Source of the DNA: Myxococcaceae bacterium
GTDB lineage: Bacteria; Myxococcota; Myxococcia; Myxococcales; Myxococcaceae
Assembly (NCBI GenBank): GCA_022842905.1
Contig: JALHOS010000238.1
Location: 1 to 11,184 of the forward strand
Reading direction: 5' to 3'
DNA: 11,184 nucleotides
A program made the translations under genes and the position numbers. The notes under the pieces were generated by a model that was given only the letters and a program-made list of their open reading frames with translations, was not told the DNA's origin and made no database searches. Shown piece by piece: positions 1,291 to 11,184 of the stretch (the stretch's first letter is position 1; the number at the start of each line of letters is the position of its first letter).

Positions 1291-1499
1291 GGGGTCGCCT
1301 CTACCCTGCGACAAGGTGCGCGTCGACGGCGCGAGTGACTGAGGTGGGTCGGCGCGGATTCGCTGGTCCAGCGGCCCCCGCTCCGATCCGCCCGTGGCTC
1401 GTCAACGCTCTGGCGCTCTTCGACAAACGGGGCGGATCGGCGGCACCCCGCGCGTGGCCTTGCCTTTGCTCTGTCGGTCCTCACGCATCGGAGGGGACC

Positions 1500-2114
1500 A
1501 TGGCGGGAGCGGCGGCGGGTACGAAGCGAGAGGTCGAGCGGCTCAGGGCAGAGGTCGACCGGCTCAAGGACGAGAACCGTCGCCTCATGCAGGTGGCCTA
1601 CCGCGATCCCCTGACCGGGCTGCGCAACCGGCGCTTCTTCAACGAGCGGCTGGGCGAAGAGCTGTGTCGCCTGCGCCGGGAGCCGGACCGCGTGTGCAGC
1701 GTCATCATGGTCGACCTCAACGCCTTCAAGGCGCTCAACGACACGCGGGGCCACGCCGCCGGAGACGCCGCGTTGGTCGCCGTCGGTCACTACCTCGAGT
1801 CGCTCACGCGCACGACGGACCTGTGCTGCCGCGTCGGGGGCGACGAGTTCATCGTGCTGCTGCCGAACACCGACGTGGCGCAGTGCCAGCGCGTGCTGCA
1901 GCGGCTGCGCGCGTACCTGCCTCGGCTGGCGACGACGGGCCTGGGCCAGCGAGGGCTGTCCCTGGGCGCGGCGACGGCGACGGCGAGCGACGACGAGCTG
2001 CGGCTGCTGAGCCGGGCGGACGAGCTGATGTACGCGGACAAGCGTGAAGCCCGCGGCGGCAGCGCCGTGGAAGTGTGCGACGAGCCCGAGCCGTGGCTCG
2101 CTCGGGCGGCCTGA
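1500..2114 (+). CDS. GGDEF-domain diguanylate cyclase (stand-alone: N-terminal coiled coil plus GGDEF, no recognisable sensor domain)
   Basis: The translation contains YRDPLTGLRNRRFF, DLNAFKALNDTRGHAAGD, the exact GGDEF motif (CRVGGDEFIVLLP), an RxxD I-site (RTTD) five residues upstream, and RADELMYADKR. The ATG at 1500 is preceded by GGAGGGG at 1489-1495. The N-terminal 30 aa (REVERLRAEVDRLKDENRRL) look like a heptad coiled coil. The alternative upstream ATG at 1335 lacks an RBS. Confidence 0.85.
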   Translation: MAGAAAGTKREVERLRAEVDRLKDENRRLMQVAYRDPLTGLRNRRFFNERLGEELCRLRREPDRVCSVIMVDLNAFKALNDTRGHAAGDAALVAVGHYLESLTRTTDLCCRVGGDEFIVLLPNTDVAQCQRVLQRLRAYLPRLATTGLGQRGLSLGAATATASDDELRLLSRADELMYADKREARGGSAVEVCDEPEPWLARAA

Positions 2115-2139
2115 CCTCAACCGGTTGTTCTCGGTGTGG

Positions 2140-2620
2140 TGAGCGGCGACGAGCGATGGCGCGACGTCACGCGCCCGTCCTCCTCTCAGCGACGGCGACA
2201 GTGAGCGACCGCCCACGTCACCAGCCGTACACCGCGTGGCGATGACCCGGCGAGGGACGACGAGCGCCCCCCGACGTCACGCGACCGTCCTCTGCGCGGC
2301 GACGGTGATGGTGAGCGACGACGAGCGGCGGCCCAACGCGCCGGTCGTCCTGCGCGTGGCGAGAATGACCGGCGAGGGACGACCTGACGTCACGCGACGG
2401 TTCTCTGCGCGGCGATGATGATGGTGAGCGACCGCCCTACGTCACCAGCCGTCCACCGCGCTGTGACGGTGACCCGGCCAGCGACGACGAGCGACCCCGC
2501 GACGTCACGCGATCGTCCTCCGGGTGGCGATGACTCGACGAGCGACGACGAACGAGGGCCTGACGTCACGCGACGGTCCTCTGCGCATTGTGACGACGAC
2601 GAGCGGTAGCCGAGCAGGGC
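2140..2620. repeat. degenerate 57-bp tandem array of about 9 units, derived from a segment of the GGDEF 3' coding region
   Basis: The motif (g)agcgacgacgagcg recurs about every 57 bp (near 2150, 2258, 2316, 2371, 2430, 2482, 2540, 2594). Each unit contains gacgtcacgcg...cgtcctctgcgcggcgacggtgatggtgagcgacgacgagcg, alignable to GGDEF bases about 1929-1998 (gcgacgacgggcctgggccagcgagggctgtccctgggcgcggcgacggcgacggcgagcgacgacgagc). In the gene the two GACGACG direct repeats lie exactly 57 bp apart (1931 and 1988). Confidence 0.75.
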
Positions 2621-2998: not shown

Positions 2999-3781
2999 AT
3001 GGTCGAGTCCGCCCGCCCCATGACCTCCTTCGTCGAGCTCCTGGTGGGCTTCCCCACCGCGCCGTTCACCGCCGCGCTGGGGGTGGCGGTGTTGTACTGG
3101 CTGCTCGTCATCGTCGGCGCCGCGGGGGTCGACCTGCTCGACGGCGCGGGCGACGGCGCGGCGGGTGGGGTGAAGGCCGCCGGTGAAGCGCTGTCCGGTG
3201 GGCTCAAGGCGGCGGGCGACGTGCTGGCGGCTGGCAAGGCCGGCGCCGAGGCAGCGCAGGCGAAGAGCGGCGTGTTCGAAACGCTGGGCCTGGGCGGCGT
3301 GCCGGTGACGGTGGCGTTCACGGCGCTGACTTTCTTCGCCTGGGCGACGAGCGTGGGCGTGGTGTCCTGGCTGCACCCCGAGGGCCTCGCGCTGCGGCTG
3401 GCCGTGTTCGTGGGCTCGCTGGTGGCGGGCCTCGTGGCGGGCAGCGCGGTGACGCGGCCGCTGCGTCGGGTGTTCACCAGCGCCGAAGGCCGCCGCCGAG
3501 ACCAGCTGGTGGGGCACCTGTGCACGGTGACGAGCACCAAGGTCGACGCGGGCTTCGGCACCGCCGAGGTGTCGGACGGCGGCGCGGCGATCGCCGTGCA
3601 CGTCGTGTGTCACAAGCAGAACGGGCTGAAGAAGGGCGATGCCGCGCTGCTGATCGCGTACGACGCGCAGAAGGACACGTACGACGTGGAGCCGCTGGAC
3701 TTCCTCGAGCCCCACGAAGTCAAGGCGCTGGACGACCCCGAAGCGCGCAGTCGGGTCTTGGCAGGCCGCATCAAGCTGTAG
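2999..3781 (+). CDS. NfeD-like short-form membrane protein (three TM helices plus C-terminal OB-fold beta-barrel), the usual flotillin partner (YuaF/YqiJ-like)
   Basis: Three hydrophobic helices (FVELLVGFPTAPFTAALGVAVLYWLLVIVGAAGV; VPVTVAFTALTFFAWATSVGVVSWL; LRLAVFVGSLVAGLVAGSAV) are followed by a Gly/Val-rich beta segment (GHLCTVTSTKVDAGFGTAEVSDGGAAIAVHVVCHKQNGLKKGDAALLIAYDAQKDTYDVEP) typical of the NfeD C-terminal domain. The gene sits immediately upstream of flotillin. Start is uncertain between GTG 2954, ATG 2999 and ATG 3020, with no clear SD at any of them. Stop TAG is at 3779-3781. Confidence 0.7.
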   Translation: MVESARPMTSFVELLVGFPTAPFTAALGVAVLYWLLVIVGAAGVDLLDGAGDGAAGGVKAAGEALSGGLKAAGDVLAAGKAGAEAAQAKSGVFETLGLGGVPVTVAFTALTFFAWATSVGVVSWLHPEGLALRLAVFVGSLVAGLVAGSAVTRPLRRVFTSAEGRRRDQLVGHLCTVTSTKVDAGFGTAEVSDGGAAIAVHVVCHKQNGLKKGDAALLIAYDAQKDTYDVEPLDFLEPHEVKALDDPEARSRVLAGRIKL

Positions 3782-3834: not shown

Positions 3835-5928
3835 ATGGACATGCACAACGTGGTGGCCGTGTTGACGGTGATTGGCCTCGCCTTCCTGTTCGTGGTGGGC
3901 GTCGCCGTCATGGTGGCGCGCTTCTACCGACAGGTGGCGCAGGGCCAGGTGTTGATCGTCAACACCATGAAGAGCGAGCCGCGGGTGAGCTTCACTGGCG
4001 CGGTGGTGCTCCCCATCATCCACCGGGCGGAGATCATGGATATCTCGCTCAAGACCATCGAGATCGATCGCCGCGGGAAGGAAGGCCTCATCTGCGCGGA
4101 CAACATTCGCGCCGACATCAAGGTCGCCTTCTTCGTGCGGGTGAACAAGACGGTGGAGGACGTGGTGAAGGTGGCCGGCGCCGTCGGCTGCGCCCGCGCG
4201 TCGGACCAGCAGACGTTGAGCCACCTGTTCGAAGCGAAGTTCTCCGAAGCGCTCAAGACCGTCGGCAAGCGGCTCAACTTCGAAGACCTCTACAAGGAGC
4301 GTGACAGCTTCAAGGACCAGATCGTCCAGGTCATCGGCAAGGACCTGAACGGCTACCACCTCGAAGACGCGGCGATCGACTTCCTGGAGCAGACGCCGAT
4401 CGAGATGCTCGACAAGGAGAACATTCTCGACGCGCAGGGCATTCGGAAGATCACCGAGCTGACCAGCAACCAGAACGTGCTGACCAACGATTTCAAGCAG
4501 ACCGAGCGCAAGCGGATCACCCAGCAGAACGTCGAAGCCGACGAGGCGGTGTTCGCGCTCGAGCGGCAGCGCGCCGAGGCCGCGGCCAAGCAGAAGCGGG
4601 AGATCGAGACCGTGCAGGCCCGCGAGCAGGCCGAGACGATGAAGGTGCAGCAGGAAGAGCACCTGCGCGCCGAGCAGGCCCGCATTCGGTCGGACGAAGA
4701 GATCAGCGTGCTCGAGCAGAACCGCATGCGGCAGGTCGAGGTCGCCGAGAAGAACCGCGAGCGTGTCGTCGGCATCGAAGCCGAGCGCGTGAAGAAGGAC
4801 CGCGACCTCGAGGCGATCGCCCGCGAGCGTGAGGTGGAGCTGCAGCGGATCGTCAAGGAGAAGGCGCTGGAAGTGGAGCGCAAGGCGATCGCCGACGTGA
4901 AGGCGACCCGCATCACCGTCGACAAGAAGGTGGCCACCGAAGAGGAGACCATCAAGGACGTGCACGTGCTGGCCGAGGCCAAGCGCAAGAAGGACGCGCA
5001 GATCATCGCCGCCGAGGCCACCGCCATGGAAGACGCGGTGCAGCGGGTGAAGGCCGCCGAGGCCGCCGAAGAGGTGTCGCGGCACGAAGCCAAGCAGCGG
5101 CTCATCTCCGCGGAGGCGTCGCTGGAGGCCGCCGACAAGGAAGCGCGGGCGAAGATTCGGCTGGCCGAAGGCGCGCAGGCCGAAGCCGCCGCGCAGGGCC
5201 TGGCCGACGCCAAGGTGAAGGAAGCCAACGCCGCCGCCGCTGAGAAGGTGGGCCTGGCGAACGTGCGCGTGAAGGAAGCGGACGCGGTGGCGACGGAGAA
5301 GGCGGGGCTCGTGCAGGCGCACATCACCAAGGAGCAGCTGGCCGCCGAGGCGCTGGGGCTCGAGCAGAAGGGCGTGGCGCAGGCGAAGGTGAAGGAAGCC
5401 GACGCCGCCGCGCTCGAGAAGCAGGGGCTGGCCGAGGCGTCGGCGATCAAGGCCAAGGTGTCGGCCGAGGCGTCCGGGGTGCAAGAGCGGCTGCTCGCCG
5501 AGTCGAAGGGGCTCAAGGAGAAGGCCGAGGCCATGAAGCTGCTGCAGGGCGCCACCAAGGAGCACGAGGAGTTCCGCCTCAAGCTCGAGAAGGAGAAGGC
5601 GGTCGAGCTGCGCGGGCTCGAGGTCAAGCGCGACATCGCCGAGCAGCAGGCGAAGGTCATGGGCGCGGCGTTCTCGCAGGCGAAGATCAACATCATGGGC
5701 GGCGACGGCGCGTTCTTCGACCAGTTCATGAAGGCGGTGACGCTGGGCCAGTCGGTGGACGGCGCCATTGGCCACAGCGATTCGCTCAAGACGCTGCTCA
5801 AGCCGTACCTGAACGGCGACAAGAGCCTGCCGGACGACGTCAAGGAGATCCTCTCCAAGCCGGGCCTGACGCAAGACGCGCAGAACCTCGCGCTCACCGC
5901 CCTGCTCACCAAGCTCGCCAAGAGCTGA
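3835..5928 (+). CDS. flotillin-family protein (YqiK/FloT-like): N-terminal TM anchor, SPFH/Band-7 domain, long EA-rich coiled coil, flotillin C-terminal region; 697 aa
   Basis: ATG at 3835 is preceded by AAGGGGA at about 3816-3824. The TM segment is VVAVLTVIGLAFLFVVGVAVMVARF. The SPFH core reads GQVLIVNTMKSEPRVSFTGAVVLPIIHRAEIMDISLKTIEIDRRGKEGLICADNIRADIKVAFFVRVNK. Heptad Glu/Ala/Lys/Arg-rich coiled coil spans roughly 4550-5560, with internal KVKEA(D/N)AAA(L/A)EK repeats near 5190-5420. Stop TGA is at 5926-5928. Confidence 0.9.
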   Translation: MDMHNVVAVLTVIGLAFLFVVGVAVMVARFYRQVAQGQVLIVNTMKSEPRVSFTGAVVLPIIHRAEIMDISLKTIEIDRRGKEGLICADNIRADIKVAFFVRVNKTVEDVVKVAGAVGCARASDQQTLSHLFEAKFSEALKTVGKRLNFEDLYKERDSFKDQIVQVIGKDLNGYHLEDAAIDFLEQTPIEMLDKENILDAQGIRKITELTSNQNVLTNDFKQTERKRITQQNVEADEAVFALERQRAEAAAKQKREIETVQAREQAETMKVQQEEHLRAEQARIRSDEEISVLEQNRMRQVEVAEKNRERVVGIEAERVKKDRDLEAIAREREVELQRIVKEKALEVERKAIADVKATRITVDKKVATEEETIKDVHVLAEAKRKKDAQIIAAEATAMEDAVQRVKAAEAAEEVSRHEAKQRLISAEASLEAADKEARAKIRLAEGAQAEAAAQGLADAKVKEANAAAAEKVGLANVRVKEADAVATEKAGLVQAHITKEQLAAEALGLEQKGVAQAKVKEADAAALEKQGLAEASAIKAKVSAEASGVQERLLAESKGLKEKAEAMKLLQGATKEHEEFRLKLEKEKAVELRGLEVKRDIAEQQAKVMGAAFSQAKINIMGGDGAFFDQFMKAVTLGQSVDGAIGHSDSLKTLLKPYLNGDKSLPDDVKEILSKPGLTQDAQNLALTALLTKLAKS

Positions 5929-5935
5929 AGCCCCC

Positions 5936-8900
5936 ATGGCGACCAGTGAGGTGAACCTCGAGGGCGGCAGCTACGAGGTGATTCGGTCGCGGCTGGCCGG
6001 CCAGGCGACGCAGCTGGCCCAGGCCGCCGAGGCGCTCAACCAGAAGCGCCGCGAGGAGTTCGGCGGTGACGAGCTGGCCGTGGCCGGCAACGACCGCGTC
6101 CGCACCGAGCACAGCTGCGTGGCCCGCGACATCGTCCCGTTGGGCAGCCGACTCTTGCTCGGCTTCAACGTCTTCATGGGCCTCAAGCAGGAACGCGCCC
6201 CGAAAGACGTGTTCAGCCTGCACCAGTTCGTTCGCCAGCCCGACGGCACGTTCAACTTCGACGAGCTCAAGCCGAGTGAGGGCGGCGGCTTCCTCGAGGA
6301 CCGCCGCTTCGCCAAGGACTTCGGCGAGCTGACTCGCTACTACAAGGACTGCAAGCTGCTGCGGCTCTTGCGCACCGACGGCCGGCTCCTCGCGGTGATG
6401 CAGACGGGCCTGACGCTGCGCGACGTGAAGGTGTTCCGCTTCAGCGTCGACCAGGAAGGCCGCGCCACCTACCTGGACCTCAACGGCGAGAGCGAGCTGC
6501 CCCGCGTGCCCACGCACGACTTCGAATGGACCCGGCTGGGCCGCGAAGACGTGGTGCAGGGCCGCTTCCCGCACGTCAACGTCTTCGACGAGATCTTCGT
6601 GGAGACGATGGGCGGCGACCTGACGGTGAAGGTCGAGAACAACACCGAGACGGGCCAGGGCATCTTCTCGGAGCCCGTCGCCGAGAAGGACCAGTCGCTG
6701 GACGACGCCGAGTTCCACGTCGCGAAGGCCGGCGGCCTCATCCTCCTCAAGGTGCGGCCGTTCCGCGAAGAGGCGTACCGCTACCTCGTCTACAACCCGA
6801 GCACGCGGGAAGTGCACCGCGTGGACGGCTTGGGGCTGTCTTGTGTGCAGCTCCCAGAAGAGCAGGGCGTCGCGTTCCCCGGCGGCTACGCGCTGCGCAC
6901 CGGCGAAGTGAAGACGTTCGACGGCGACTGGTCGGAGCTGGCGTTCGAGCGCGCGCTCAAGAGCCCCAACGGGGAAGACGTGCTGTACGTCTTCTTCGGG
7001 CTCAAGTCCGGTCGCTACCTGCTGCTGCCGTACAACCTGGTCCGCAAGGAAATGGCGAGCCCGCTGCCCTGCCACGGCTGGTCGCTCTTCCCTGACGGGC
7101 AGCTCGTCATCTTCAAGGGCACCAGCGACGAGCCGACCCGCGTGCACCCCATGCAGGTGTGGAAGACGCCGTTCCTCTCGGCCGAAGTACACGCCGCCCG
7201 CCCGCCCCGGGCCACCGCGCTCGGCCGAATCGGCAACGCGGACCTGGTGCGCGGCATCGCCGACGTGCTGACGCTCAAGCGGCTGGCCAGCGCGGACAAG
7301 CCGACGCGGCGCACGTGGGAAGAGCTGGTCTCGCAGGCGCAGCGCGCGCTCGACGCGTACTTCTGGCTGTCGGAGCCGAGCGTGGCGCTGGCGGACCAGG
7401 TCCGCGCGGTGAAGGCGTCGGCGGAGCTGATCCTCGACGAGTTCGAGAAGGTACAGGCGCTCAAGAAGCGCGCGCAGGACGGCATGGCCGACGCCGAGGC
7501 GCAGGTCAGCCAGCTGCTCTCGAACACCACGCCCGGCGTGCTCACCAGCACGCAGGAGTTCATGGGCGCGCTGCAGGCCATTCGCAGCCAGCGGGGCAAG
7601 CTCATCACCCTCAAGGAAGTCCGCTACGTCGACGTGGCCCGGCTCGACGCCATGGAAGGGCAGCTGGTCGAGCAGGCCGGCGCCGTCAGCCAGGCCTGCG
7701 TCGAGTTCCTTTTGACGCCCAGCGCCTTCGACGCGGTGAAGGCCGAGCTGGCCCAAGCCCAGCAGCGCGTGGACGCCGTCGCGCGCACGGCCGAGCTCGA
7801 GCCGCTCGTCAAACAGCTCGAGGAGACGGGGCAGGGGTTGGACCTGCTCGGCGAGGCCGTCGCGGCGCTCAAGGCCGGCGACGCGGACCAGAAGGCGCAG
7901 ATCCTCGAGCGGCTCTCGGAGGTGTACGCCCAGCTCAACCGCACCCGCGGCGGCGCGCTGGCCAAGCGCAAGGACCTGCTCACCAAGGACCAGCGCGCGG
8001 AGTTCGGCGCGCAGTTCAAGCTGCTGGGCCAGGCGCTGGAGAGCGCGCTGGCGCTGACCGACACCCCGGAGCGCTGTGACGAGCAGCTCGCCCGGCTGTC
8101 GGTGCAGCTCGAAGAGCTCGAAGGCCGCTTCGCCGAGCTCGACGAGTTCGCCACCCCGCTCGCCGAGCGGCGAGAGGCGCTGTTCGAAGCGTTCGAATCG
8201 AAGAAGCGCACGTTGGTGGACGAGCGGCAGCGACGCGCGCTCAACCTGTTCCAGGCGGCGGAACGAATCCTCCAGGGCGTGCAGCGGCGGGTGAAGGCCT
8301 TCACCACCGAAGACGAGCTCAACGCGTTCTTCGCCGGCGACGCCATGCTCGAGAAGCTGCGCGAGCTGGGCAAGCAGCTGCTCGCGCTCAAGGACTCGGT
8401 GAAGGCCGACGAGCTGGAGTCCAAGCTCAAGGCCGCCAAGCAGGACGCGCTGCGCGGCCTGCGCGACAAGAAGGACCTGTTCGAAGACGGCCAGAACGTC
8501 ATCAAGCTGGGCGATCAACGCTTCAACGTGAACACGCAGCCGGTGGAGCTGACCGTGCTGCCCAAGGACGGCGCGCTCTGTCTGCACGTGACGGGCACCG
8601 ACTACCTCCAGCCGCTTCAGGACGCCGCGCTCGAGCAGCACAAGGCGCTGTGGGACCGCACGCTGCCCAGCGAGGCGCCGCACGTGTACCGGGCCGAGAC
8701 GCTGGCCGCGACGCTGCTGTTCCGCGCCGAAGCCGGAGAAGGGGGCCTGTCGCTGCTGCGCCTGCGTGAGGCCGTCAACGCCGCGGACGGCGGGCTGTCG
8801 GCGGTGCGGCAGGTCGCGCAGGACCGCTTCGACGAAGGCTACGAGCGCGGTGTGCACGACGCCGACGCCACGGTGATCCTCGGCGAGGTGTTGCGCGCGT

Positions 8901-11184
8901 ACGAGCTGGCCGGCCTGCTGCGCTACCCCGGCACCGCGCGGGCGTGGGCGGCGCTGTACTGGGGCCTGCTCGTCGACCCCAAGGACAAGCCTTCGGCGCA
9001 GCGGCAGGCGCAGAGCTTCGGCCGGCTCAAGGACACCTTCGCCACCAGCCCTGCCTTCGCGCAGGTGGTGCAGGACTGGGCCGGGCGCCTGGCCAAGCGC
9101 TGCGGGGCCGAAGGGCTGGACGTGAAGGGCGCGGACGCGGCGCTCGCGGCGCGCTACCTCCTCGAGGAGCTGGGTCAGGACGACGTGCGCTTCGTCACGT
9201 CGCACGACGCGCTGCTGCTCAAGGACGGGCTGCTCGCCGCGCTGGACTCACAAGGGACCCGGGCCCGCTTCCTGGACGACCTGAGTCAGGTGAGCGCGCT
9301 GTTGGACCGCTGGCGGCTGGCCCGCGCGTGGCTCGACGCGGTGGTGGTCGCGCCTTCGAGCGGCGCTGCGCTCAAGGGGCTGGCGCACGCGGTCGACGAA
9401 GCGGCGGCGCTCTTGGTGGTGGGGCCCGACGTGCTCCCTCGCCGCGAGAGCCAGGCGCTGGTGGCCGGCCGCGTCACCGGCCTGCTCGGGCAGCACCCGC
9501 GCATCGTCGACCGAGCGCTCGACGTGCGCATCGACGAGTTCGTCAGCCGGCTGTCGGCGTTCGTGCGCGACGACGTGCCGGCGTTCCACACGTTCCGCGG
9601 ACTGGTGCGCCGCGTGCTCGACGAACAGAAGGCGAAGCTGCGCCTGGACGAGCTGGTGCCCAAGGTGCTCTCGAGCTTCGTGCGCAACGAGCTCATCGAC
9701 AGCGTGTACCTGCCGCTCATCGGGAAGAACTTGGCCAAGCAGCTGGGCGCCGCCGGCGACACCAAGCGCACCGACCGCATGGGCATGCTCTTGCTCATCT
9801 CCCCGCCGGGCTACGGGAAGACGACGCTCATGGAGTACGTGGCCAGCAGGCTGGGGCTCGTGTTCGTCAAGGTGAACGGGCCGGCGCTGGGGCACCAGGT
9901 GCTGTCGTTGGACCCGGCCGACGCGCCCAACGCCACCGCGCGGCAGGAGGTCGAGCGCATCAACTTCGCGTTCGAGCTGGGCAACAACGTCATGTTGTAC
10001 CTGGACGACATTCAGCACACGAACGCGGAGCTGCTGCAGAAGTTCATCTCCCTGTGTGACGGGCAGCGCCGGGTGGAAGGTGTCTGGGGCGGCAAGACGC
10101 GCACGTACGATCTGCGCGGCAAGAAGTTCTGCGTGGTGATGGCCGGCAACCCGTACACGGAGAGCGGCGAGACGTTCAAGATTCCGGACATGCTCGCCAA
10201 CCGCGCCGACACGTACAACCTGGGCGACATTCTCGACGGGAAGCAGCAGGTGTTCGCGCAGAGCTACCTCGAGAACGCGCTCACGGCGAACCCGGTGCTC
10301 GCGCCGTTGTCCGGCCGCGCGCGCGGCGACGTGCTCAAGCTGTTCGCCATGGCCCGAGGTGAGCCGGTCGCGGCGACGGATCTCGAGCACCCGTACTCAG
10401 CGGTGGAACTGCAGGAGATCGTCGCCGTGCTGCAGCGCCTGTTCCGGGTGCAGGCGACGCTGCTCAAGGTGAACCAGCAGTACATCGCCTCCGCCGCGCA
10501 GGACGATCGCTACCGCACCGAGCCGCCGTTCAAGCTCCAGGGCAGCTACCGCAACATGGGCAAGCTGGCCGAGAAGGTCGTCGCGGGCATGACGGACGAC
10601 GAGGTGGAACGGCTCGTCGACGGGCACTACGCCCAGGAATCCCAGACGCTCACCACCGCGGCGGAGCAGAACCTGCTCAAGCTGGCCGAGCTGCGCGGGC
10701 GGCTGACCGAAGCGCAGGCGCAGCGCTGGGCCGAGCTCAAGCGCGGCTACCAGCGCGTGCAGCTCATGGGCGGAGGTGAAGATGACCCGGTGGCGCGCGT
10801 CACCGGCTCCATCGCCACGCTCGGCGCGAGGCTCGAGACCATCGGCACTGCCGTCGAGAAGGCCACTGCACGGCCTCCGCCACCCGCGCCCAACCTGGAA
10901 GGCGTGACAGAAGGGCTGTCCGTGGTGGCCTCGGCGCTCGAGAAGAGCCTGGCGCCGCGAGCTGCCTCGGAAGACGGAACCCTCAAGGCGCTGCTCGGCT
11001 CGCTATCTGCGTCTCTGGCGGAGCGCGCGGCCACACCTCAGAAGGTCAGCGACGACGCGCTGGTGCACGCGGTGCAGAGCGTCGCGCGGGTGTTGGCCGA
11101 GGTCGGTCAGAAGCCCACCGGCGGCGACGGCGGCCTCGTGGAGGCGGTCGAGGGGCTCACCCAGGTCGTCAAGGCGGCGCTGGA
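5936..11184 (+). CDS. giant multidomain protein of at least 1749 aa (3' end outside the window) with an ATPase core near residue 1290; N-terminal roughly 480-aa beta-rich region and roughly 450-aa alpha-helical/coiled-coil middle region
   Basis: ATG at 5936 lies 7 nt after the flotillin stop. The frame is open to the window end; I translated it by hand with no stops, GC3 bias is strong throughout, and no '+' track ORF shares the frame. Walker A is LLISPPGYGKTTL (9800-9826) and Walker B is VMLYLDD (9989-10009); CVVMAGNP fits sensor 1, then ...NRADTYNLGD.... Minus-strand ORFs 5906..9205 and 9248..10390 are its antisense shadows. Confidence 0.85.
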   Translation, partial: MATSEVNLEGGSYEVIRSRLAGQATQLAQAAEALNQKRREEFGGDELAVAGNDRVRTEHSCVARDIVPLGSRLLLGFNVFMGLKQERAPKDVFSLHQFVRQPDGTFNFDELKPSEGGGFLEDRRFAKDFGELTRYYKDCKLLRLLRTDGRLLAVMQTGLTLRDVKVFRFSVDQEGRATYLDLNGESELPRVPTHDFEWTRLGREDVVQGRFPHVNVFDEIFVETMGGDLTVKVENNTETGQGIFSEPVAEKDQSLDDAEFHVAKAGGLILLKVRPFREEAYRYLVYNPSTREVHRVDGLGLSCVQLPEEQGVAFPGGYALRTGEVKTFDGDWSELAFERALKSPNGEDVLYVFFGLKSGRYLLLPYNLVRKEMASPLPCHGWSLFPDGQLVIFKGTSDEPTRVHPMQVWKTPFLSAEVHAARPPRATALGRIGNADLVRGIADVLTLKRLASADKPTRRTWEELVSQAQRALDAYFWLSEPSVALADQVRAVKASAELILDEFEKVQALKKRAQDGMADAEAQVSQLLSNTTPGVLTSTQEFMGALQAIRSQRGKLITLKEVRYVDVARLDAMEGQLVEQAGAVSQACVEFLLTPSAFDAVKAELAQAQQRVDAVARTAELEPLVKQLEETGQGLDLLGEAVAALKAGDADQKAQILERLSEVYAQLNRTRGGALAKRKDLLTKDQRAEFGAQFKLLGQALESALALTDTPERCDEQLARLSVQLEELEGRFAELDEFATPLAERREALFEAFESKKRTLVDERQRRALNLFQAAERILQGVQRRVKAFTTEDELNAFFAGDAMLEKLRELGKQLLALKDSVKADELESKLKAAKQDALRGLRDKKDLFEDGQNVIKLGDQRFNVNTQPVELTVLPKDGALCLHVTGTDYLQPLQDAALEQHKALWDRTLPSEAPHVYRAETLAATLLFRAEAGEGGLSLLRLREAVNAADGGLSAVRQVAQDRFDEGYERGVHDADATVILGEVLRAYELAGLLRYPGTARAWAALYWGLLVDPKDKPSAQRQAQSFGRLKDTFATSPAFAQVVQDWAGRLAKRCGAEGLDVKGADAALAARYLLEELGQDDVRFVTSHDALLLKDGLLAALDSQGTRARFLDDLSQVSALLDRWRLARAWLDAVVVAPSSGAALKGLAHAVDEAAALLVVGPDVLPRRESQALVAGRVTGLLGQHPRIVDRALDVRIDEFVSRLSAFVRDDVPAFHTFRGLVRRVLDEQKAKLRLDELVPKVLSSFVRNELIDSVYLPLIGKNLAKQLGAAGDTKRTDRMGMLLLISPPGYGKTTLMEYVASRLGLVFVKVNGPALGHQVLSLDPADAPNATARQEVERINFAFELGNNVMLYLDDIQHTNAELLQKFISLCDGQRRVEGVWGGKTRTYDLRGKKFCVVMAGNPYTESGETFKIPDMLANRADTYNLGDILDGKQQVFAQSYLENALTANPVLAPLSGRARGDVLKLFAMARGEPVAATDLEHPYSAVELQEIVAVLQRLFRVQATLLKVNQQYIASAAQDDRYRTEPPFKLQGSYRNMGKLAEKVVAGMTDDEVERLVDGHYAQESQTLTTAAEQNLLKLAELRGRLTEAQAQRWAELKRGYQRVQLMGGGEDDPVARVTGSIATLGARLETIGTAVEKATARPPPPAPNLEGVTEGLSVVASALEKSLAPRAASEDGTLKALLGSLSASLAERAATPQKVSDDALVHAVQSVARVLAEVGQKPTGGDGGLVEAVEGLTQVVKAAL

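What the first reader, a model, noticed from the sequence alone, without database searches (positions are those of the whole stretch)
5936..11184. Architecture of the giant ORF: one ATPase module at the end of a very long non-catalytic N-terminal region
Residues 1 to about 480 are beta-rich and globular, with no motif I recognise. Residues about 480-930 are strongly alpha-helical with heptad character (for example LEELEGRFAELDEFATPLAERREALFEAFESKKRTL). Residues about 930-1270 form another globular segment. The P-loop GYGKTT follows at residues 1292-1297 (Lys 1295), with the Walker B LYLDD about 60 residues later, a compact MoxR/AAA_5-like spacing, and a probable sensor-1 Asn in CVVMAGNP. At least 300 further residues follow the ATPase, and the gene continues past the window. 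A single ATPase domain in a protein longer than 1750 aa is unusual; it may oligomerise through the coiled-coil stalk like dynein/midasin-type or McrB-like machines.
Basis: seen in the sequence. Interest (0 to 1): 0.6.

Follow-up and report, generated by a model that had tools for sequence, protein, structure and literature searches.

The report
Flotillin-operon giant AAA+ ATPase (DUF3686 family)
The long gene is a real but already catalogued type of bacterial protein: a propeller-shaped domain, a long helical stalk and one ATP-driven motor module, almost always encoded just after two membrane-scaffold genes (flotillin and its partner), so it probably serves membrane scaffolds rather than DNA repair, as databases name it.

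Summary

The gene is not an oddity. It belongs to a catalogued family (Pfam DUF3686 + DUF7902 + AAA, named "DNA repair ATPase" by NCBI). Members are 1,600-2,000 aa and occur in at least 582 species of several phyla. The closest relative is 84% identical and 1,842 aa long, so only about 91 residues lie beyond the window.

AlphaFold models show five parts:
- an N-terminal beta-propeller capped by a helical bundle;
- a segmented helical stalk;
- an all-helical middle domain;
- one AAA+ module;
- a variable tail.

The best structural matches of the AAA+ module are the MoxR ATPases NorQ and CbbQ, then dynein and midasin.

In 72 of 76 assessable loci the gene directly follows a YqiJ/NfeD-like gene and a YqiK-type flotillin gene, as it does here. 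This operon and architecture were described computationally in 2024, in work on PspA membrane-stress systems. No experiment was found.

The most likely role is an ATP-driven remodeller tied to flotillin scaffolds, which is inferred and not shown. Novelty is low and interest modest.

The parts
3020..3781 (+). YqiJ/YuaF-type (short NfeD-like) membrane protein gene, 253 aa. First gene of the conserved three-gene unit.
   Evidence: It has about 3 hydrophobic segments. A profile of 25 orthologues matches E. coli YqiJ by hhalign (prob 91%, E 9e-7). The only PDB hit is the YuaF NfeD domain, and it is weak (E 0.34). The gene is present upstream in 65 of 83 related loci.
3835..5928 (+). YqiK-type flotillin/SPFH scaffold gene, 697 aa: N-terminal membrane anchor, SPFH domain and a long Ala/Glu/Lys-rich helical region. 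Second gene of the unit.
   Evidence: A profile of 28 orthologues matches E. coli YqiK by hhalign (prob 99.8%, E 1.5e-29, 410 columns). NCBIfam FloT hits 13 of 28 members and Pfam Band_7 hits 6 of 28. There is one N-terminal hydrophobic segment. The start at Met106 of the long ORF is supported by the 697-aa gene called in L001. The gene is present directly upstream in 72 of 76 assessable loci.
5936..11184 (+). Giant ORF, 1,749 codons in the window and about 1,840 aa when complete. It has no transmembrane segment, so it is predicted to be cytoplasmic. Third gene of the unit.
   Evidence: The frame is open to the window end. It is 84% identical over 1-1749 to the 1,842-aa P0001. The maximum 19-residue hydropathy is 1.36, so there is no TM segment.
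6014..7363 (+). DUF3686 domain, residues 27-476. An N-terminal helix (12-42) packs with helices 416-499 into a bundle that caps a beta-propeller-like domain (48-410).
7373..8485 (+). Helical stalk region, residues about 480-850. It is segmented, with partial heptad periodicity, and includes Pfam DUF7902 (residues 597-679, nt 7724-7972).
   Evidence: Pfam PF25472 E=1e-20. Heptad z-scores are 2.6-5.2 in parts of 442-780. This region was not modelled in 3D.
8723..9655 (+). Mostly alpha-helical middle domain, residues about 930-1240, followed by a long linker helix (1199-1235) leading into the ATPase.
   Evidence: The AF2 model of 930-1749 has pLDDT above 90 through this part. No Pfam family matches. 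Heptad z is 6.2 at 1198-1260.
9779..10231 (+). AAA+ alpha/beta core, residues 1282-1432. Walker A GYGKTT lies at nt 9809-9826 (Lys1295). Walker B LYLDD lies at nt 9995-10009, with Asp-Asp in place of Asp-Glu. A predicted pre-sensor-1 beta-hairpin VEGVW-GG-KTRTY lies at nt 10073-10108. Sensor-1 Asn1405 lies at nt 10148-10150. The Arg-finger candidate Arg1423 lies at nt 10202-10204.
10244..10855 (+). AAA+ helical lid with extra helices, residues about 1437-1640. It holds the sensor-2 candidate Arg1539 in QGSYRNM (nt 10550-10552), preceded by a long inserted helix (about 1489-1520), and ends in helices with strong heptad character.
   Evidence: AF2 secondary structure. QGSYRNM is invariant in 40 cross-phylum sequences. 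Heptad z is up to 9.7 at 1618-1680.
10856..11182 (+). Variable Ala/Pro/Gly-rich C-terminal tail of short amphipathic helices. It is truncated by the window end, with about 91 aa missing.
   Evidence: Model confidence is low here (pLDDT 55-75). After residue about 1639 the tail is 28 aa or shorter in 34 of 77 loci and 49-466 aa in the rest. The full tail is seen in P0001.

Best explanation
The ORF encodes a soluble, cytoplasmic member of the DUF3686 'beta-propeller + helical stalk + AAA+' family.

Shown:
- It carries a single AAA+ module whose nearest structural relatives are MoxR, dynein and midasin (Pfam AAA_5).
- The nucleotide-binding and sensor residues are fully conserved.
- It is the third gene of a tightly linked, widely conserved unit: a YqiJ/NfeD-like membrane protein, a YqiK-type flotillin, then this ATPase.
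- In some proteobacteria the unit is extended by YjfI and PspA/IM30 genes.

Inferred:
- The protein oligomerises through its AAA+ module, probably as a ring like other AAA+ proteins.
- It docks on the cytoplasmic flotillin/NfeD scaffold through its propeller and stalk.
- It uses ATP binding and hydrolysis to assemble, remodel or dismantle that scaffold, or clients held in it, as part of a membrane-maintenance or envelope-stress response.
- The invariant Asp-Asp Walker B hints at slow, switch-like hydrolysis. This last point rests on my recollection of DnaA-type motifs and was not tested.
- The database name 'DNA repair ATPase' is most likely a misnomer.
For: Family membership and architecture:
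- Pfam DUF3686 scores 2e-182, with DUF7902 and AAA also present.
- About 3,800 homologues share the same domains.
- The ATPase module starts 1251 +/- 37 aa from the N-terminus in 77 loci.

AAA+ fold and clade:
- The AF2 model has pLDDT 84.

Localisation:
- The giant protein has no TM segment. The flotillin has one and the YqiJ-like protein about three.

Operon:
- A flotillin-like gene lies directly upstream in 72 of 76 assessable loci from Myxococcota, Actinomycetota, Acidobacteriota and Gammaproteobacteria. The median gap is 52 bp.
- These are the only three gene families conserved around the locus.
- Pairwise-identity matrices of the flotillin and the propeller correlate at r=0.94, as high as between domains of the giant protein itself.

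Identity of the partners:
- The flotillin-like profile matches YqiK at E 1.5e-29, and the NfeD-like profile matches YqiJ at E 9e-7.

Link to PspA:
- On plasmid pQBR103 ten same-strand genes run YjfI, PspA/IM30, rhomboid, DUF2491, DUF350, DUF1190, GSP-synthase-like, YqiJ-like, SPFH, then this ATPase.

Literature:
- PMC11237479 describes the same operon and a 'Betapropeller+Coiled-coil+AAA-ATPase' protein.
Against: - No experiment on any family member was found, so function rests on gene context and fold.
- Physical contact with flotillin, the oligomeric state and ATP hydrolysis are all untested.
- Four loci with enough upstream DNA (L003, L028, L031, L037) and a Bacteroidota member (L085) lack an adjacent flotillin gene, so the ATPase can be encoded apart from it.
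- The correlation of identity matrices is also expected for any two vertically co-inherited genes.
- MoxR ATPases usually work with VWA partners, and none is present here.
- Sequence-only comparisons cannot resolve the AAA+ clade. Only the P-loop stretch aligns to solved structures or to E. coli AAA+ proteins.
Confidence: 0.6

Rival explanations
1. Client-directed machine. The flotillin/NfeD scaffold only recruits or confines the ATPase, as HflK/C does for FtsH. The real substrates are other membrane or membrane-proximal proteins, or PspA polymers, which the AAA+ ring unfolds, extracts or disassembles.
For: It rests on the same operon evidence as the main explanation. PspA/IM30 and YjfI lie in the extended operon on pQBR103. 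The literature proposes chaperone-like assembly roles. The propeller is a typical client or adaptor-binding platform.
Against: Most loci, including this window, carry no PspA gene within 6 kb upstream or 10 kb downstream, and no third partner family is conserved. No protease or other effector domain is fused or adjacent.
Confidence: 0.25
2. Conflict or anti-phage defence system. A large NTPase with a propeller sensor, together with membrane proteins, acts as an abortive-infection or immunity module.
For: The taxonomic distribution is patchy across distant phyla, with 60-76% identity in the ATPase module. The family occurs on a few megaplasmids, and a phospholipase D gene lies nearby on pQBR103.
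Against: There is no significant PADLOC match for any of the three proteins. There is no match in 50,697 phage records, and only 13 of 72,556 plasmid records match, several of which are chromosome-sized. Conservation is very high and the architecture is fixed, unlike fast-diversifying defence genes. Flanking genes are ordinary housekeeping genes.
Confidence: 0.08
3. DNA repair ATPase, as named by Pfam and NCBI. The protein would act on DNA or on repair complexes.
For: Only the database label supports this, together with weak P-loop-level similarity to RuvB.
Against: No DNA-binding, nuclease or helicase domain was detected. The similarity to RuvB is confined to 40-45 residues around the P-loop. 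The conserved partners are membrane proteins. No repair genes are conserved nearby. No paper supporting the name was found.
Confidence: 0.03

Closest known systems
DUF3686/DUF7902/AAA 'DNA repair ATPase' family (Pfam PF12458), which is the 'Betapropeller+Coiled-coil+AAA-ATPase' of flotillin/YqiJ operons described by Ravi et al., mSystems 2024 (PMC11237479)
   Same: The domain order, length and invariant motifs are the same, and so is the gene order YqiJ-like, Band-7/flotillin, ATPase.
   Different: This window carries the 'abbreviated' operon without CesT/YjfI and PspA genes. A GGDEF gene and a repeat-rich spacer lie upstream instead. The Myxococcota members have an extra variable C-terminal tail.
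MoxR-family AAA+ ATPases NorQ and CbbQ (Pfam AAA_5/AAA_3)
   Different: Sequence identity is only 14-16%. MoxR proteins are about 250-500 aa and work with VWA/MIDAS partners. This protein is about 1,840 aa, with a propeller, a stalk and a helical domain in front. Its Walker B is Asp-Asp, and it has no VWA partner.
Dynein heavy chain and midasin/Rea1 AAA modules
   Different: Dynein and midasin have six concatenated AAA modules in one chain. This protein has one, so any ring must form from several chains.
HflK/C-FtsH and prohibitin-m-AAA protease assemblies (SPFH cage plus AAA+ machine)
   Same: The pairing is conceptually the same: an SPFH scaffold with an AAA+ ATPase at a membrane. This rests on knowledge of those systems and on papers listed.
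   Different: FtsH is a classical-clade AAA protease anchored in the membrane. This ATPase is soluble, belongs to a different AAA+ clade and has no protease domain. Its partner is a YqiK-type flotillin and not HflK/C.

Membership tests
AAA+ superfamily | Walker A GxxGxGK[ST] and Walker B hhhhD[DE] | tested here: met
   GYGKTT 1292-1297 and LYLDD 1354-1358 are present and invariant in 62 and 40 homologues. Walker B is the Asp-Asp variant.
AAA+ superfamily | Alpha/beta core with strand order 5-1-4-3-2 plus a C-terminal helical lid. Sensor 1, Arg finger and sensor 2 residues are present. | tested here: met
MoxR / AAA_5 (helix-2-insert, pre-sensor-II-insert) clade | Closest structural and profile similarity is to MoxR, dynein or midasin modules | tested here: met
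MoxR / AAA_5 (helix-2-insert, pre-sensor-II-insert) clade | Pre-sensor-1 beta-hairpin | tested here: met
   The model places strands at 1380-1384 and 1387-1391, between helix alpha3 and strand beta4.
MoxR / AAA_5 (helix-2-insert, pre-sensor-II-insert) clade | Beta-hairpin insert in helix 2, and an extra helix before the sensor-2 helix | tested here: inconclusive
   A conserved insertion of about 18 residues follows beta2 (1315-1332), but it is modelled as a loop and not a hairpin. A long helix (about 1489-1520) precedes QGSYR. Coordinates could not be inspected; only secondary structure was available.
MoxR family proper | Conserved partner gene encoding a VWA/MIDAS protein | tested here: not met
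   ORF clustering over 83 loci finds only the flotillin-like and NfeD-like families as conserved neighbours. No VWA family appears in the Pfam-annotated neighbourhoods.
Pfam DUF3686 'DNA repair ATPase' family | A full-length DUF3686 domain followed by DUF7902 and one AAA module in a protein of about 1,600-2,000 aa | tested here: met
   PF12458 covers 2-448 of its 448 positions at E 2e-182. PF25472 scores 1e-20. The 120 best homologues carry the same Pfam set.
PSP-associated YqiJ-flotillin-AAA+ operon (PMC11237479) | [quoted passage not shown] | tested here: met
   Window genes lie at 3020-3781, 3835-5928 and 5936 onward. hhalign links them to YqiJ and YqiK.
PSP-associated YqiJ-flotillin-AAA+ operon (PMC11237479) | CesT/YjfI and PspA genes in the same operon (full version) | tested here: not met
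   They are not in the window or in L001. The upstream genes there are a GGDEF gene and unknown ORFs. They are present in the homologous pQBR103 locus. The window therefore fits the paper's 'abbreviated operon'.
Dynein/midasin-type motors | Six AAA modules concatenated in one polypeptide | tested here: not met
   Only one AAA module is found by Pfam and in the models. Residues 1-1240 contain no P-loop domain.
McrB-like GTPases | Closest fold match is McrB, with a McrC-type partner | tested here: not met
Known anti-phage defence systems (PADLOC) | A significant match of any component to a defence-system model | tested here: not met
   The best hit is IetA at E 0.0012 over 30 P-loop residues. 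The two upstream proteins have no hits.

The most novel reading that the evidence does not exclude
The family is the missing energy source of bacterial flotillin biology. It would be a dedicated AAA+ machine, functionally analogous to Vps4 for ESCRT-III or NSF for SNAREs, that binds YqiK-type flotillin/NfeD cages through its propeller and stalk. It would drive their ATP-dependent assembly-disassembly cycle during membrane stress.
Probability: 0.3. Interest if true: 0.7.

Novelty: new member of a known kind. Interest (0 to 1): 0.3.

Why it matters
Bacterial flotillins and their NfeD partners are widespread, yet their mechanism is still debated. No ATP-driven factor is known to act on them.

This family is a strong candidate for such a factor. 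It is conserved in hundreds of species, encoded immediately after the flotillin gene, and linked to PspA/IM30 in some lineages.

For annotation, the result shows that the label 'DNA repair ATPase' has no support from domains or context and should not be propagated.

For this particular window the gain is modest. It adds one more orthologue of a family whose architecture and operon were already described computationally.

Tried and rejected
- An exact look-up of the upstream 802-aa ORF found nothing. The true gene starts at Met106 (697 aa), and the sequence is new at the exact-match level.
- Literature searches for 'DUF3686' and 'PF12458' returned no papers. The searches gave no experimental study of the family.
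- Sequence searches against PDB align only about 40-70 residues around the P-loop, so they cannot place the AAA+ clade. This held for the single sequence and for the 40-sequence profile.
- hhalign of that profile against E. coli RavA, YifB, ClpX, Lon, RuvB, FtsH and McrB behaved the same way, aligning 15-41 columns.
- The flotillin-like profile found nothing in PDB sequences. Pfam misses the window's own copy. Identity was established through orthologues and through hhalign to YqiK.
- I tested whether flotillin length tracks the length of the giant protein's N-terminal region. The correlation was weak (r=0.23), so there is no support for a 'ruler' relationship.
- I looked for PspA-like genes next to a Vibrio member and in the window's upstream ORFs and found none.
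- The long antisense ORFs overlapping the gene (for example 5906-9205 on the minus strand, 1,099 aa) are treated as by-products of 70% G+C. The plus-strand frame carries all the homology.
- The reading 'defence system' was considered and rated low.
Full report

The window has about 70% G+C. The frame beginning at 5936 stays open for 1,749 codons to the last base.
- GYGKTT at 1292-1297.
- LYLDD at 1354-1358.
- CVVMAGNP at 1399-1406.
- The quoted helical example at 725-760.

Long ORFs on the opposite strand are the usual by-product of high G+C. All homology lies on the plus strand.

**2. What the protein is**

Pfam recognises three elements:
- DUF3686 ('ATPase involved in DNA repair') over residues 27-476, at E=2e-182.
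- DUF7902 over residues 597-679, at 1e-20.
- A single AAA module at 1285-1408, matching AAA at 8e-7 and AAA_5 at 1.5e-5.

A search of 5.8 billion proteins returned about 3,800 homologues. The best 120 all have the same Pfam set and are 1,650-1,970 aa long. Most are labelled 'DNA repair ATPase' or 'AAA family ATPase' in Myxococcota.

The closest, P0001, is 84% identical and aligns 1-1751 to the window's 1-1749, out of 1,842 residues. The window therefore lacks only about 91 residues.

An exhaustive HMMER scan with residues 1200-1749 found 386 clusters at 50% identity with E<=1e-30. In full-length members the ATPase again starts at about residue 1150-1260.

A scan of one genome per species found at least 582 species carrying the family. 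They include Myxococcota, Actinomycetota (Nonomuraea, Amycolatopsis, Micromonospora, Nocardiopsis and others), Acidobacteriota and Gammaproteobacteria. Bacteroidota and Vibrio members also exist.

**3. Anatomy**

Residues 1-500 (AF2 pLDDT 89, pTM 0.86):
- An N-terminal helix (12-42) is followed by a run of four-stranded sheets from 48 to 410 and then helices 416-499.
- This is a divergent beta-propeller capped by a helical bundle, with no close solved relative.

- Composition favours helix, with P+G at 7.7%.
- Heptad periodicity is significant only in parts of 442-780.
- Pro or Gly breaks occur every 30-60 residues.
- Residues about 855-900 have a strand-like sequence.
- This looks like a segmented helical stalk and not one long coiled coil.

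Residues 930-1749 (AF2 pLDDT 84):
- A confident, mostly helical domain spans 930-1240.
- A long linker helix follows.
- Then comes a canonical AAA+ alpha/beta core at 1282-1432, with a beta-hairpin (1380-1391) just before the sensor-1 strand.
- A helical lid follows, in which a long helix precedes the invariant QGSYRNM motif.
- Heptad-rich helices run to about residue 1640.
- The model ends in a low-confidence tail.
- The tail is lineage-specific. In 34 of 77 loci the protein ends within 28 residues of position about 1639.

The protein has no transmembrane segment.

**4. Which ATPase?**

Foldseek against the PDB gives only AAA+ proteins. MCM and RuvB have the best E-values, and NorQ and CbbQ have the best target TM-scores (0.53-0.58).

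- Every other clade scores 13.1 or less. McrB scores 11.1-11.7.

All 40 cross-phylum ATPase modules hit both Pfam AAA_5 and AAA.

Sequence-only comparisons align only the P-loop and cannot decide the clade. This covers solved structures and E. coli RavA, RuvB, FtsH, ClpX, Lon, YifB and McrB.

The placement near MoxR, dynein and midasin therefore rests on predicted structure, with a moderate margin.

The following are invariant in 62 diverse and 40 cross-phylum sequences:
- Lys1295.
- Asp1357-Asp1358.
- Asn1405.
- Arg1423.
- Arg1539.

The module is unusually conserved, at 59-76% identity between phyla.

Walker B is always Asp-Asp, in the motif LDDIQH. From memory, DnaA uses a similar motif and is a slow, switch-like ATPase. 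This is a lead, not a test.

**5. Context, the decisive evidence**

Two genes lie immediately upstream in the window. One encodes a 253-aa protein with about three hydrophobic segments (3020-3781). The other encodes a 697-aa protein with one N-terminal anchor and a long Ala/Glu/Lys-rich region (3835-5928).

Profiles of their orthologues match E. coli proteins by hhalign:
- The 697-aa family matches YqiK, a flotillin-family protein (prob 99.8%, E 1.5e-29).
- The 253-aa family matches YqiJ (prob 91%, E 9e-7).

Among the flotillin-like orthologues, 13 of 28 also hit NCBIfam FloT and 6 of 28 hit Pfam Band_7.

Across 83 fetched loci, tblastn and all-against-all ORF clustering give a consistent picture:
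- The flotillin-like gene lies directly upstream of the giant gene in 72 of the 76 loci with enough upstream DNA.
- The median gap is 52 bp.
- The YqiJ-like gene lies in front of the flotillin gene in 65 loci.
- No other gene family is conserved around the locus.

Pairwise-identity matrices of the flotillin and the propeller correlate at r=0.94. That is as high as between domains of the giant protein itself. It is consistent with inheritance as one unit, although shared phylogeny alone could produce it.

Exceptions exist. L003, L028, L031, L037 and a Bacteroidota member lack an adjacent flotillin gene.

**6. What is already known**

Ravi et al. (mSystems 2024, PMC11237479) describe operons combining CesT/Tir-PspA with three further genes. 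[quoted passage not shown]

They note that abbreviated operons without PspA are widespread. Their table writes the gene order for Dokdonia as YqiJ-YuaF, then Band-7+Coiled-coil+Flotillin, then Betapropeller+Coiled-coil+AAA-ATPase.

I confirmed the link independently. On plasmid pQBR103 a homologue with 60% identity in the ATPase module ends a ten-gene same-strand array. The array runs YjfI, PspA/IM30, rhomboid, DUF2491, DUF350, DUF1190, GSP-synthase-like, YqiJ-like, SPFH, then 'DNA repair ATPase'.

The window carries the abbreviated form. I found no experimental study of the family.

**7. Mechanism**

Shown:
- The protein is a soluble AAA+ protein.
- It has an intact and highly constrained nucleotide site.
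- It has a propeller and a stalk.
- Its gene is fixed after the flotillin and NfeD-like genes.

Inferred:
- It oligomerises through the AAA+ module.
- It docks on the cytoplasmic flotillin/NfeD scaffold.
- It uses ATP to assemble, remodel or dismantle that scaffold or its clients, in a membrane-maintenance or envelope-stress pathway related to PspA systems.

Rivals:
- A client-directed machine merely housed by flotillin, on the HflK/C-FtsH analogy.
- An anti-phage system. This is rated low because PADLOC gives no hit, no phage record matches, few plasmid records match, and the family has a fixed architecture and high conservation.
- DNA repair. Only the database label supports it.

**8. Verdict**

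The module is AAA+ with MoxR/AAA_5-like affinity and conserved sensors.

This is a new member of a known but experimentally uncharacterised kind. Interest is modest.

Noticed in passing
window 2125-2600: A degenerate direct-repeat array lies in the spacer between the GGDEF gene and the YqiJ-like gene. Units are about 55-61 nt (or about 110-nt doublets), and each carries a GACGTCACGCGAC(C/G)GTCCTC core. The whole stretch of about 590 bp is absent from the closest related locus L001, where the spacer is about 270 bp.
   Followed up: partly
window 1335-2114 (+): A GGDEF diguanylate cyclase gene (Pfam E 1e-37) lies upstream of the three-gene unit. It is syntenic in L001 but is not seen next to the unit in the other 81 loci.
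   Followed up: partly
window 9995-10009 (residues 1354-1358): Walker B is Asp-Asp (LDDIQH) and not Asp-Glu, and this is invariant in every homologue examined. The whole ATPase module is 59-76% identical between phyla, more conserved than the rest of the protein.
   Followed up: partly
window 10856-11182 and P0001 residues 1641-1842: The C-terminal tail consists of short amphipathic helices separated by Pro/Gly-rich linkers, recurring as '..L.P.L..L..'. It is 28 aa or shorter in 34 of 77 loci and up to 466 aa in others.
   Followed up: partly
window 8498-8635 (residues about 855-900): A short stretch with strand-like sequence (NVIKLGDQRFNVNTQPVELTVLPKDGALCLHVTGTDY) interrupts the otherwise helical region between the stalk and the middle domain. 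It was not modelled.
   Followed up: no
L094/L095 (pQBR103, NC_009444.1 84437-97641): A Pseudomonas fluorescens megaplasmid carries a ten-gene same-strand array: YjfI, PspA/IM30, rhomboid, DUF2491, DUF350, DUF1190, GSP-synthase-like, YqiJ-like, SPFH and the giant ATPase. A phospholipase D gene lies 8.6 kb downstream.
   Followed up: yes
L003, L028, L031, L037, L085: Some family members (Sorangium, Labilithrix, another deltaproteobacterial MAG, and the Bacteroidota species Aureibacter) have no flotillin or YqiJ-like gene within the fetched flanks. In L009 the flotillin gene lies 4.4 kb upstream and not adjacent.
   Followed up: partly
L016 and L082: In these two loci the N-terminal and ATPase parts of the giant gene are in different reading frames. 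This suggests a frameshift, a sequencing error or a pseudogene.
   Followed up: no
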